Position numbers: made by a program
Shown: piece by piece, positions 12,001 through 15,000 of the stretch
Layout: the number at the start of each line of letters is the position of its first letter
Position numbering within the stretch: the first letter of the stretch is position 1
NCBI RefSeq assembly: GCF_030013595.1
Contig: NZ_CP122768.1
Direction: 5' to 3' (one strand)
DNA from: Escherichia coli
Lineage (GTDB): Bacteria; Pseudomonadota; Gammaproteobacteria; Enterobacterales; Enterobacteriaceae
Length of the DNA stretch: 64,000 nucleotides

Positions 12001-15000
12001 TCCTGATTTTGCAAGTTCACAATCCCATGTTGTTACGATGAATAAGAAAGCGCCAAAACGCGAAAAGGAGATTTTGACACGGTGGCGCATTTTATCATGA
12101 AGTGAGGTGGAGAAATGCCAGTAGCGGCGCGTTTCCCGGTGGTATTTGCCACCGGGCAGAACCCGGCAGTAGGGGAACGCGCCGTCTGGTTTAGATCACC
12201 TCTGGGGCATTGCCGGTGATGGCTTTGACATCTGCCAGCAGATCGCCAAACTTGCCGTAGTTAACCTTAACGCCATCGTCGAGATCAATACTGATTCTCA
12301 TATCAGCATAGTGACGCAGGCGGTCGTCATAACTACGCAGTTCGCTGAATTTTTTGATCAGGCTGTCGCGTTCGCGTTTCAGACGTGTGGCTTCGCCGCC
12401 AGAAGCCTCATCAAGTTGATCGTTCAGGCGATCGATATTGGCCTGATAACGCGCCAGCAGCGGTACAACATATTCGGTACGCATTCTCGACAGCGTAGCG
12501 TCGTTATAGCGATGCAGATACACCAGGCACTCAAAGGCTTTCTCTTTGCCGGAGCTGAATAGCCAGTAGATTGGCCGCTTTTTATACATCTTCATATGAT
12601 CTTTCCAGAACTGGGTGGAAAGATAGCGGCGAATGGTCTCCAGCGCAGATTCGCCTTTTTTCGGCTTGATCGCGTATAAACAGAGACTTTCGGCGATAAA
12701 TTCGAGGTTTTCCTGCAGGTGCTCTTCACCCCAGACAGTGCGGACAAACTCTTTGACGCGAGAGGTGACGTCGTCCTCAAACCACTCGTCATCCATCAGC
12801 GGCAGGATACCGTCACTGTCGGCTGGGAAGGTTTTGTAGGCACCTTCGGCGACGAGATCGGCGAAGCCTTTGTTGCCTTCATGGGCGTAGACAAGGCCTT
12901 CGCGATCGAGGGAGTAACGGCCCATTTGGCAGCCGATGATGTAGGAAGTTAACTCAGAAAATATGTCACTACATTGACGGTGGTTTATTTCATCAAGATT
13001 ATTCTTATTTGGATATTTAAAGGTTGAATTCGAATCTAAAGCTATCTTTGAAATAGAAACATTCGGCTCTATCAAACCTAAAAGATTATATGTTTCTAAC
13101 AATTTTTGATTGTTTTTCGTTTCGAGTAATTGTGTTCTCACAACTCTATTCTGCCATGATTCTTTCATTTGATTGTAAGAATTTGATATTTTTTCATTTT
13201 TAAAATCTAATAAAGGATGATTTTTGAAAGACCACGAACTTTCATGTTCATCCCAATCTGATTTTGAAAGTTCTATGAGTTCGCGAACTTGAGATACAAT
13301 TTCCTGCTTATATTTTTCTATGACAGGCACTTTACCCACAGGGCCTTCATGGAAGTCTAGTGTCGGGGATAAAGCTTCAAGTATTTTTTCCGCTATTGGG
13401 CTATTCATTAATGCCAGCGCATAAAAAAGAGAATCTTGATTGTCACTAAAGCAAACAGAGCCTTTTGTTTCGAAAAGAAAACCCTCAGGGCTGTAGCGCA
13501 TGGATAAATATGATGATGAAATTGTAGACCAAGTAATTCCTTCCTTAAAATAATATCTTTCATTACGGATTACTGAGCCTTCGTAAGATTTCATTTCTGC
13601 ACCATTTTTATCCCAGTTCACAACCAAATCATTGTTTCCAAACCATTTTCTGTACGCCCCTCCTTTGTTGCAGGGAAACCATTTAGAAGCATTTTTGTCA
13701 TCCATGTATGAATTAAATTGGCTAAATTTTGTTAGGGAAATTTCACTCCATCTTCTCAAAAATAAATCATTATTACCTGTGGCAAATCCTTGTCTTGGTA
13801 CAGAGTAAACTTGAACTGGTGTACCCAATGTAAAGCAAGACAGTATTTTAGGGTTTACCCAATATGCAATAGGATAACCGGGTATTTTTTTGAAATCACT
13901 TGCAGTAGCATTTTTTAAACGCTCATTTTTTACAGGGAACTCTTCTGGGTATCCTTTTTCATTGATATCGTCATTTTCCGCATAGGAGAAGGAGCCCTTA
14001 TAAGATGGAGTATTCGTATTTCTAAATACAGTAGCATTTGTACCAAAAGCAATTTTCATAACTCCATTGCCCATATGCACCATAGTTTCGATTGTATAAT
14101 TAGTGAGGATATTTTTACGCATGTTTTCAAAACTGGAAAGGAACATCCAGGATTGCATTGTTACCATTGAGTTGAAACCAGCATTTTTCAACCAAAGGAA
14201 ACCACGCTCAATAAACATAGCAAACAAATCAGACTTACTATCTGGGAAATTATTTTTGGCAAACTCTTTCAGCTCACCATTCATTCCCTTACTGCCCATA
14301 TACGGCGGATTCGCCACCACTGCATCATATCGCTGCGCTAAAATCCACGCCTGCTGAATAAACGGAATAAACGCTTTCGCCGCCGCTTTCTGTTGGAAAT
14401 CGCCCTCCTGTTCCAGGCGATACAGCGCGTCCAGAAATACCTTCAGTTCCGCTTCTTCTTCCTGCGGTATCTGAATCAGTGAGCCCAGCGTTTTTGCATT
14501 CACAAAGCGTTTCAACGTGCGCATCAGCAGCTGATATTCTGCGCTGTCAGTTTGGGTTAACGCGGTATTTTCAGCAAACATATCCCCCATGCTGCCGGTT
14601 TGTACCTGCTGGTGGAAATTGAGCTGCTGCCAGAGTTTGGCGATATCCAGATGCAAACTTTCCTGCAAAGAAACAATATTCAGACGCACATCGGCTTTGT
14701 TGAATAAATCAGATTTTGGGTAAGTCTCCCCCGTAGCGGGTTGTGTTTTCAGGCAATACGCACGCTTTCAGGCATACCTGCTTTCGTCATTTTGTTCAGC
14801 GCTCGTACCAGGGCCATAGCCTCCGCAACCTGACCATCGTAGTCACGCAGCGTCAGTGAACCCCCGAACAGCTGTTTTACCCGGTACATCGCCGTTTCCG
14901 CTATCGAGCGACGGTTGTAATCTGTTGTCCATTTCCACCGCGCATTACTCCCGGTCATTCGCTGATTAGCCACTGCACGGTTACGGTCTGCATATTCACC

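What the first reader, a model, noticed from the sequence alone, without database searches (positions are those of the whole stretch)
12021..12190. 170-bp spacer between pglX and pglZ as the only candidate promoter left for pglZ-brxL
With the upstream BREX genes gone, pglZ-brxL expression must come from within the pglX fragment, from the IS, or from this spacer. In some BREX loci pglZ-brxL forms a separate transcription unit (from memory), so this spacer may hold its promoter.
Basis: inference. Interest (0 to 1): 0.3.

Follow-up and report, generated by a model that had tools for sequence, protein, structure and literature searches.

The report
Likely internal promoter for pglZ-brxL
The short gap between a truncated pglX gene and pglZ in this E. 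coli BREX phage-defence remnant very probably holds a small, strongly conserved promoter that can drive pglZ-brxL on its own; this is an ordinary, already anticipated kind of feature that has not been mapped experimentally.

Summary
On the minus strand, a 3' pglX fragment (12191-14692) is followed by a 170-nt gap, or 176 nt if pglZ starts at TTG 12014. Intact pglZ and brxL follow. An IS903B element (14693-15749) removed brxA, brxB, brxC and the 5' end of pglX in an 11.2-kb adjacent deletion.

The standard two-hexamer scan finds no promoter in the gap. The gap does contain TGaTAAAAT (12097-12089), an extended -10 sigma-70 motif without a usable -35.

I collected 39 distinct spacer alleles using coding-sequence anchors only. 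They form two clades that are 57% identical in the spacer. The 13-nt block TTCATGATAAAAT is invariant in all of them (permutation P<5e-5), and it is absent from BREX loci with other pglX/pglZ junctions.

Two stem-loops flank the block. Both show compensatory changes and a sense-strand G-U bias:
- a GC-rich hairpin just after the pglX stop, with no U-tract
- a hairpin that starts 1-3 nt after the predicted start site (about 12083)

The best reading is a constitutive internal promoter for pglZ-brxL. This matches the two-operon layout reported for B. cereus and Salmonella LT2 BREX. No transcription start has been mapped, and "only candidate" overstates the case. Interest is low.

The parts
7322..9406 (-). 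brxL, intact (694 aa)
   Evidence: Pfam BrxL_N, BrxL_ATPase and Lon_C. It differs from 30COLEC BrxL at 1 aa and has no stops.
9417..12014 (-). pglZ, intact (865 aa from TTG 12014; the ORF also allows GTG 12020)
   Evidence: Pfam PglZ. The annotated start in relatives is the TTG. It differs from 30COLEC PglZ at 10 aa and has no stops.
12017..12028 (-). Ribosome-binding region ATGGGATTGTGA (GGGA at 12026-12023)
   Evidence: This 12-nt run is invariant in 39 alleles and is the second longest in the spacer.
12050..12080 (-). Leader stem-loop GUGUCAAAAU...GUUUUGGCGC, followed by U-rich CUUUCUUAUU (12050-12041)
   Evidence: dG is -9.1 with z -3.2 in the window, and -17.1 in Cedecea. Cells are 89.9% paired and 3 pairs change on both sides. 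G-U outnumbers A-C 96:7, which indicates selection in the sense RNA.
12081..12083 (-). Predicted transcription start (6-8 nt after the -10 hexamer)
   Evidence: Inferred from sigma-70 geometry. Not mapped.
12089..12101 (-). Invariant block TTCATGATAAAAT, containing the extended -10 element: TG 12097-12096 and hexamer TAAAAT 12094-12089
   Evidence: Invariant in 39 distinct alleles from 2 clades, with P(run>=13)<5e-5. It occurs once in each of 51 HS-type loci and is absent from the 4 other loci. Its extended -10 score is at the 99.98th percentile of the window.
12118..12189 (-). GC-rich compound hairpin that starts 2 nt after the pglX stop. The core helix shared with the other clade is 12171-12162 paired with 12156-12147.
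   Evidence: dG -40.2, z -4.9. It is single copy. The core helix is 97.7% paired with 3 compensatory pairs, and G-U outnumbers A-C 42:5. It has no U-tract and was not called a terminator. No Rfam family matched.
12191..14692 (-). pglX 3' fragment (about 833 codons; the first roughly 380 are missing)
   Evidence: Pfam Eco57I/N6_Mtase, with the profile cut at its N-terminus. The junction to the IS lies at 14692/14693. The stretch 12938-14131 is a divergent module of 32-36% GC.
14693..15749 (-). IS903B (1057 bp). Its transposase (14749-15717) runs in the same direction as pglX'-pglZ-brxL.
   Evidence: Inverted repeats GGCTTTGTTGAATAAATC. Pfam DDE_Tnp_1_5 and DDE_Tnp_1. Annotated as IS903B in relatives. 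The flanks GTTTGGGGG and GATGTGCGT are not a duplication.

Best explanation
The gap is a compact transcription junction of E. coli HS-type BREX-1 loci. Read 5' to 3' on the minus strand, it has four parts.

1. A GC-rich stem-loop lies right after the pglX stop codon. It acts in the pglX mRNA, probably as a 3' stabiliser or weak pause. It is not a canonical terminator.
2. A sigma-70 promoter of the extended -10 class follows (TGaTAAAAT, 12097-12089). It has no functional -35 and should start transcription near 12083.
3. A roughly 65-70-nt leader begins almost at once with a conserved stem-loop. This is the arrangement known to protect 5' ends from decay.
4. A GGGA ribosome-binding site and a weak TTG start for pglZ complete the junction.

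In intact loci this promoter would supplement read-through from the brxA promoter. In this window the IS903B deletion removed brxA-brxC and the pglX 5' end, so it is the most credible dedicated source of pglZ-brxL mRNA.

Shown: the anatomy, the conservation, the covariation and the deletion. Inferred: promoter activity, the start site, and the roles of the two hairpins.
For: Motif: TGn+TAAAAT is correctly oriented. Its extended -10 score is second best in 12021-15800(-) and at the 99.98th percentile of 128k positions. About 0.024 such motifs are expected in the gap.

Conservation: 46 metagenome loci were retrieved with a pattern anchored only in the pglX and pglZ coding sequence. With the genome loci they give 39 distinct alleles in two clades that are 57% identical in the spacer. 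TTCATGATAAAAT is the longest invariant run, at 13 nt, and no shuffle out of 20,000 reached that length.

Specificity: the block is present once in all 51 HS-type loci. It is absent from loci with other junction types.

The reported transcription pattern tracks junction type:
- pEFER, where pglX and pglZ overlap with no spacer, showed no measurable promoter upstream of pglZ (PMC9122601).
- LT2, with inserted genes, has its own start site just upstream of pglZ (PMC9009780).
- B. cereus has ABCX and ZL operons (cited in PMC12707154 and PMC9122589).

An unrelated 217-nt spacer in E. coli ET896 shows the same layout. It has a strong terminator hairpin followed by TGgTATAAT.

The leader hairpin starts 1-3 nt after the predicted start. 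It shows covariation and sense-strand G-U bias.

[quoted passage not shown] Isaev et al. drew predicted promoters for the HS cluster (PMC7261183, Fig. 1 legend; the figure itself was not readable).
Against: - No transcription start, reporter or RNA-seq data exist for this spacer in anything I could read.
- The -35 region is poor (CATTTC/ATTTCT), and the tool's two-hexamer scan finds nothing in the gap.
- The invariant block extends 4 nt beyond TGn-hexamer (TTCA). A plain -10 element does not require that.
- The 39 alleles form only two deep clades, so the number of independent tests of conservation is smaller than 39.
- The PWM I used was written from remembered frequencies.
- Hairpin, then AU-rich single strand, then hairpin is also the classic layout of an mRNA processing site.
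- In the E. coli clade the leader hairpin is followed by a U-rich run, so it could terminate some transcripts.
Confidence: 0.65

Rival explanations
1. The invariant AU-rich block is an RNA-level element, not a promoter. It would be an RNase E-type processing site or a protein or sRNA binding site. It would lie between two protective stem-loops and split a brxA...brxL polycistronic mRNA into separately stable halves.
For: The layout of hairpin, single-stranded AU-rich block, then hairpin fits this reading. Both helices show sense-strand RNA selection, with G-U far exceeding A-C. The first hairpin lacks a U-tract, so upstream transcripts should read through. The block's invariance extends beyond the -10 element itself.
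Against: RNase E sites are degenerate and rarely kept letter for letter over 13 nt while the flanks diverge to 57% identity. The block matches TGnTAnAAT exactly in the right orientation and at the right distance. A second, unrelated spacer (ET896) has a real terminator followed by a consensus TGgTATAAT, and that pairing makes sense only for a promoter. The two roles are not mutually exclusive.
Confidence: 0.15
2. In this particular strain, pglZ-brxL mRNA comes mainly from upstream. The sources would be read-through from the co-directional IS903B transposase gene or promoter-like sites inside the AT-rich pglX fragment. The spacer element would contribute little.
For: The transposase gene points toward pglX'-pglZ, and no terminator is called between them on that strand except weak sites at 15467-15449 and 13492-13480. 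Several sites in 13000-14300(-) score at or above the 99.8th percentile on the two-hexamer PWM, for example TTTAAG-17-TACAAT at 13526. LT2 has internal start sites within pglX (PMC9009780).
Against: The tool's consensus promoter count in 12000-16100 is at chance level (6 found, 6.3 expected). The pglX fragment has no evident ribosome-binding site at its first start. A 2.5-kb poorly translated RNA would therefore be exposed to Rho-dependent termination; this step is an inference. AT-rich horizontally acquired DNA is typically silenced. None of these sites is known to be conserved, whereas the spacer element is.
Confidence: 0.15
3. The leader hairpin plus U-rich tail (12080-12041) is an attenuator. 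It would terminate most transcripts before pglZ, so the spacer limits rather than provides pglZ-brxL expression.
For: In the E. coli clade a 10-bp stem is followed directly by CUUUCUUAUU. The helix is conserved with covariation. PglZ is reported to be a nuclease, and imbalance among BREX genes is reported to be toxic (PMC12205998, PMC9122589), so tight control would be plausible.
Against: The U-rich tail is not conserved in the other clade (CUUCGAAUUUAC). In E. coli the loop is 11-12 nt and the stem is only -9 kcal/mol. The terminator scan did not call it. No alternative anti-terminator pairing was identified.
Confidence: 0.07
4. The block is a minus-strand image of a plus-strand (antisense) promoter, TTGACA (12074-12079) plus TATCAT (12093-12098). 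It would drive an RNA antisense to the pglX 3' end.
For: A perfect TTGACA and a 5/6 TATCAT are present on the plus strand. Antisense start sites were seen in the LT2 locus (PMC9009780).
Against: The two hexamers are 13 nt apart, outside the 15-19-nt range that sigma-70 uses. There is no TG upstream of TATCAT. TTGACA becomes CTGACA in the other clade, and its conservation is explained by leader-helix pairing. The scan reports no plus-strand promoter here.
Confidence: 0.03

Closest known systems
Two-operon organisation of type 1 BREX (brxA-brxB-brxC-pglX and pglZ-brxL) in Bacillus cereus H3081.97
   Same: The transcription break is in the same place, immediately upstream of pglZ, and pglZ-brxL forms the second unit (as cited in PMC12707154 section 41, PMC9122589 and PMC9122601).
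   Different: The organism, the sigma-factor context and the sequence are all different. The B. cereus start was mapped by 5' RACE, whereas this one is only predicted. I could not read the primary paper.
Salmonella LT2 StySA BREX pglZ-brxL start site inside the end of DUF4435
   Same: It is a close relative of the E. coli HS-type locus. An independent primary start just upstream of pglZ was validated by Cappable-seq and SMRT-Cappable-seq (PMC9009780).
   Different: LT2 has two extra genes between pglX and pglZ and lacks this spacer. The authors note that the HS-specific segment is missing in LT2. The promoter sequences are therefore not homologous, and the block is absent from the LT2-type locus L002.
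Extended -10 (TGn) sigma-70 promoters of E. coli
   Same: TG at -15/-14 followed by a 5/6 -10 hexamer with A2 and T6, and a poor -35. This is the class that can work without a -35 element (established knowledge).
   Different: Activity here is untested. The invariant block extends to -19 (TTCA), further than the class definition needs.
pEFER (E. fergusonii) BREX island
   Same: It is a type 1 BREX with pglX-pglZ-brxL in the same order.
   Different: pglX and pglZ overlap by 1 nt, and the region upstream of pglZ gave no reporter activity (PMC9122601). It serves as the contrast case: no spacer, no promoter.
5'-terminal stabilising stem-loops of enterobacterial mRNAs (ompA-leader type)
   Same: A conserved hairpin lies within a few nucleotides of the predicted 5' end and shows RNA-level covariation.
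   Different: The 5' end is not mapped, so the defining proximity is only inferred. No decay data exist.

Membership tests
Extended -10 sigma-70 promoter | TG dinucleotide at -15/-14, one base upstream of the -10 hexamer | tested here: met
   TG at 12097-12096, n = A 12095, hexamer 12094-12089.
Extended -10 sigma-70 promoter | -10 hexamer close to TATAAT, with A at position 2 and T at position 6 | tested here: met
   TAAAAT matches 5 of 6. It is invariant in 39 alleles.
Extended -10 sigma-70 promoter | Recognisable -35 hexamer at 16-18 nt (typical of sigma-70 promoters but not required for this class) | tested here: not met
   The best candidates are ATTTCT/CATTTC. The two-hexamer scan finds nothing in the gap.
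Extended -10 sigma-70 promoter | Primary transcript 5' end 6-8 nt downstream, dependent on the element | not testable with these tools
   This needs 5' RACE, dRNA-seq or reporter mutagenesis. No such data were found in the papers searched.
Type 1 BREX with separate pglZ-brxL transcription unit | pglZ followed by brxL, co-oriented and tightly linked | tested here: met
   The pglZ stop is at 9417 and the brxL start at 9406, a 10-nt gap.
Type 1 BREX with separate pglZ-brxL transcription unit | Functional promoter immediately upstream of pglZ | tested here: inconclusive
   A conserved extended -10 motif supports it, but there is no transcription evidence.
Type 1 BREX with separate pglZ-brxL transcription unit | Complete six-gene system (brxA, brxB, brxC, pglX, pglZ, brxL) | tested here: not met
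   brxA-brxC and the pglX 5' end are deleted. The window holds a remnant, not a working BREX.
Rho-independent terminator (post-pglX hairpin) | GC-rich stem-loop | tested here: met
   dG -40.2, z -4.9.
Rho-independent terminator (post-pglX hairpin) | U-tract directly after the stem | tested here: not met
   The tail is CAUUUCUCC in E. coli and AUCUCGAUAC in the other clade. Neither was called by the scan.
Dispersed extragenic repeat (REP/BIME-like) | Many copies per genome | tested here: not met
   There is one copy in the window and a median of one place per genome in 384 E. coli genomes. No Rfam family matched.

The most novel reading that the evidence does not exclude
The hairpin, invariant block and hairpin module is more than a promoter. 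It would be a conserved regulatory switch that sets the PglX : PglZ-BrxL ratio. It might combine promoter, processing site and leader attenuation, or be bound by a BREX or host factor at the 13-nt block. It would sit at the same junction where other BREX loci carry embedded defence genes.
Probability: 0.1. Interest if true: 0.5.

Novelty: new member of a known kind. Interest (0 to 1): 0.22.

Why it matters
If the element is active, pglZ and brxL remain expressed after the rest of BREX is lost. PglZ is reported to be a nuclease (PMC12205998), and a BrxL fragment has been reported to perturb host and prophage transcription in Salmonella (PMC9009780). A BREX remnant may therefore not be silent.

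For intact HS-type BREX, the most used E. coli model, the analysis gives a precise 9-nt target for testing how the two halves of the system are balanced. It also gives a simple rule that can be checked across loci: a spacer carrying this block should have an internal promoter, and overlapping genes should not. Beyond that, it is a routine annotation refinement.

Tried and rejected
- Two-hexamer sigma-70 and terminator scans of the gap and of 12000-16100: nothing in the gap, and counts at chance level.
- Rfam at a permissive threshold: only chance-level eukaryotic miRNA and snoRNA hits.
- Dispersed-repeat idea: rejected, because the element is single copy.
- Homology of the spacer to the LT2-type insert, to the ET896 spacer or to the pEFER junction: none.
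- Small ORFs in the gap. The 39-aa minus-strand ORF at 12033-12152 contains the 21-codon reading frame that begins at the ATG inside the block. That frame is not conserved: the E. coli clade has a stop, L006 and L045 have 1-nt indels, and there is no ribosome-binding site.
- Sigma-54, sigma-E, sigma-32 and Fur-box readings, inspected by eye: the spacing or key bases do not fit, or are not conserved between clades.
- Antisense promoter TTGACA-13-TATCAT: rejected on spacing.
- Genome-collection search with PglZ: only 4 loci. The metagenome DNA-pattern scan was much more productive.
- Literature on HS-type BREX: no mapped start site was found. The Goldfarb 2015 primary paper and the Payne hotspot preprint are not held.
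- The review statement that pEFER has an active pglZ promoter was checked against the primary paper and found to be wrong.

Full report
**What is there**

All relevant genes lie on the minus strand. Pfam assigns 7322-9406 to BrxL, 9417-12020 to PglZ and 12191-14689 to an N-terminally truncated PglX methyltransferase. It assigns 14749-15717 to an IS5-family DDE transposase.

The element at 14693-15749 has IS903-type inverted repeats (GGCTTTGTTGAATAAATC). Relatives annotate it as IS903B. The pglX stop is TAA 12193-12191 and the first possible pglZ start is GTG 12020. The more likely start is TTG 12014, because GGGA lies 8 nt upstream of it. It is also the start annotated in E. coli relatives. 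That makes the gap 176 nt.

**What happened upstream**

E. coli 30COLEC carries the same tRNA-Phe island intact. Its order is integrase, EptA-like gene, outer-membrane protein gene, IS903B, IS1A, three cargo genes, then brxA-brxB-brxC-pglX-pglZ-brxL.

- The window matches this island at 99.7% up to the right end of IS903B. It then resumes 11,161 bp further on, inside pglX.
- There is no 9-bp target duplication.
- The upstream IS junction is shared by 17 complete E. coli genomes. The downstream junction is found in none.

This is an IS903B-mediated adjacent deletion. PglZ differs from 30COLEC at 10 of 865 residues and BrxL at 1 of 694. Both are free of stops.

**Anatomy of the gap**

Read in the direction of pglX to pglZ:

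1. A compound GC-rich hairpin (12189-12118; dG -40.2 kcal/mol, z -4.9) starts 2 nt after the stop codon. It is single copy in the window and occurs about once per genome in 384 E. coli genomes, so it is not a dispersed repeat. It matches no Rfam family. It has no U-tract and is not called a terminator.
2. The sequence TGaTAAAAT follows at 12097-12089. This is an extended -10 motif with no convincing -35.
3. A 10-bp stem-loop lies at 12080-12050 (dG -9.1, z -3.2). In E. coli it is followed by CUUUCUUAUU.
4. ATGGGATTGTGA contains the ribosome-binding site, and then pglZ begins.

The tool's two-hexamer scan finds no promoter in the gap. I also scanned with a simple PWM that includes a TG term; its frequencies were written from memory. 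It puts the element at the 99.98th percentile of all 128k positions for extended -10 score, second in 12021-15800(-). Only 18 motifs of this quality occur in the window on both strands, so about 0.024 are expected in the gap.

**Comparative test**

A PglZ-based search of species genomes gave intact HS-type loci in Cedecea, Franconibacter/Enterobacter pulveris and Klebsiella oxytoca. A fourth locus, Ca. Pantoea persica, has a degraded pglZ.

To avoid selecting for the motif, I scanned metagenome contigs with a pattern anchored only in the last codons of pglX and the first codons of pglZ. This returned 46 loci.

- Together these sources give 39 distinct alleles in two clades: the E. coli type and a Klebsiella/Cedecea type.
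- The clade consensuses are 57% identical in the spacer, and 35% of spacer columns are invariant.
- The longest invariant runs are TTCATGATAAAAT (13 nt, containing the extended -10) and ATGGGATTGTGA (12 nt, the ribosome-binding region).
- None of 20,000 column shuffles gave a run of 13.
- The block occurs exactly once in all 51 HS-type loci. It is absent from the four loci that are not HS-type.

A caveat applies. With two deep clades and shallow variation within them, there are fewer independent tests than 39.

**The two hairpins**

The consensus fold recovers the post-stop helix and the leader helix. On my explicit structure, 93.5% of cells pair. Controls with the 3' partners shifted by 1-3 columns pair 38-43% of cells. 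Six pairs change on both sides.

G-U pairs form only in the sense RNA. A-C combinations would pair only in the antisense RNA. G-U outnumbers A-C 42:5 in the first helix and 96:7 in the second. Both helices are therefore selected in the pglX-to-pglZ transcript.

The leader helix begins 1-3 nt after the predicted start, about 12083. That is the geometry of a protective 5' stem-loop. The match is consistent with the predicted start but does not prove it.

**Context from other BREX loci and the literature**

The pglX/pglZ junction is a variable slot:

- In pEFER-type plasmids the two genes overlap by 1 nt.
- LT2-type loci carry an AAA_21 ATPase plus a small gene.
- In Acinetobacter, Polaromonas and Vibrio plasmids other genes sit directly upstream of pglZ.
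- Ligilactobacillus has a 20-nt gap.
- E. coli ET896 has an unrelated 217-nt spacer. It consists of a 15-bp bidirectional terminator followed by a consensus TGgTATAAT. The layout is the same although the sequence is unrelated.

Reported transcription follows junction type:

- B. cereus has ABCX and ZL operons (PMC12707154, PMC9122589).
- LT2 has a validated start site just upstream of pglZ, inside the inserted gene (PMC9009780).
- pEFER showed no measurable activity upstream of pglZ (PMC9122601). The 2025 review states the opposite and is wrong on this point.
- Acinetobacter BREX is a single transcript (PMC9122589).

For the HS type I found only predictions. One is a figure legend mentioning "predicted promoter positions" (PMC7261183). 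[quoted passage not shown]

**Interpretation**

The best-supported reading (about 0.65) is a constitutive, -35-independent sigma-70 promoter dedicated to pglZ-brxL. It is flanked by an mRNA 3' hairpin for the upstream unit and a 5' hairpin for its own transcript.

The main rivals are:

- An RNA processing or binding site between protective hairpins (about 0.15). This is not exclusive of a promoter.
- In this strain, supply mainly from read-through of the co-directional IS903B transposase gene, or from promoter-like sites in the AT-rich pglX module at 13000-14200 (32-36% GC). This is also about 0.15 and can coexist with a spacer promoter.
- A leader attenuator or an antisense promoter. Both are less likely, because the U-tail is not conserved and the antisense hexamers are only 13 nt apart.

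**Verdict**

The feature is a new, unmapped member of a known kind, an internal BREX promoter, and the literature had already anticipated it. Interest is low (0.22).

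Noticed in passing
window 14693-15749 and flanks; L055 6514-17674: IS903B caused an 11,161-bp adjacent deletion relative to the intact island in E. 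coli 30COLEC. The deletion removed IS1A, a DUF2254 fragment, a BCCT transporter gene, a hypothetical gene, brxA, brxB, brxC and about 1.1 kb of pglX. There is no target-site duplication. The left junction is shared by 17 complete genomes and the right junction by none.
   Followed up: yes
window 12938-14131 (minus strand, inside the pglX fragment): This stretch has no blastn match to the 30COLEC pglX allele and is only 32-36% GC, against about 50% in the flanks. It looks like a swapped specificity module. Most promoter-like PWM hits of the region fall here.
   Followed up: partly
window 12014-12026: pglZ most likely starts at TTG 12014, a weak start codon with GGGA 8 nt upstream, and not at GTG 12020. 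The true gap is then 176 nt.
   Followed up: yes
L004 6091-6307 (E. coli ET896): A different BREX-1 lineage has an unrelated 217-nt pglX-pglZ spacer. It contains a 15-bp bidirectional terminator followed by a consensus extended -10 (TGgTATAAT). Its pglX is also frameshifted or duplicated, and a DUF262 gene lies between brxC and pglX.
   Followed up: partly
L002, L003, L056-L059: The slot immediately upstream of pglZ is highly variable. Across loci it holds an AAA_21 ATPase plus a small protein, a DUF262 gene, an RNA-binding-domain gene, a hypothetical gene, a 20-nt gap or a 1-nt overlap. This is consistent with the reported hotspot for embedded defence genes inside BREX clusters.
   Followed up: partly
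literature: PMC12707154 section 41 versus PMC9122601: The 2025 review says the pEFER pglZ promoter reported LacZ activity. The primary paper says the regions upstream of brxS and pglZ showed no measurable activity.
   Followed up: yes
alignment A4 columns 149-244 (Klebsiella/Cedecea clade, e.g. L005 2908-3003): In the second clade the ATG inside the invariant block is in frame with pglZ and would add about 31 residues. The E. coli clade has a TAA in this frame, and two alleles have 1-nt indels. It is therefore not a conserved coding extension.
   Followed up: yes
L008 (Candidatus Pantoea persica): The pglZ homologue is split across several short ORFs and the match starts at residue 112. It appears to be a pseudogene in a symbiont genome.
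   Followed up: no
window 5271-7057 (plus strand): Downstream of brxL lie a Gp2/YagK-like gene and two paralogous DUF7828 + zinc-ribbon genes. The same set occurs in the intact islands of CDE2901 and 30COLEC. Their function is unknown.
   Followed up: no
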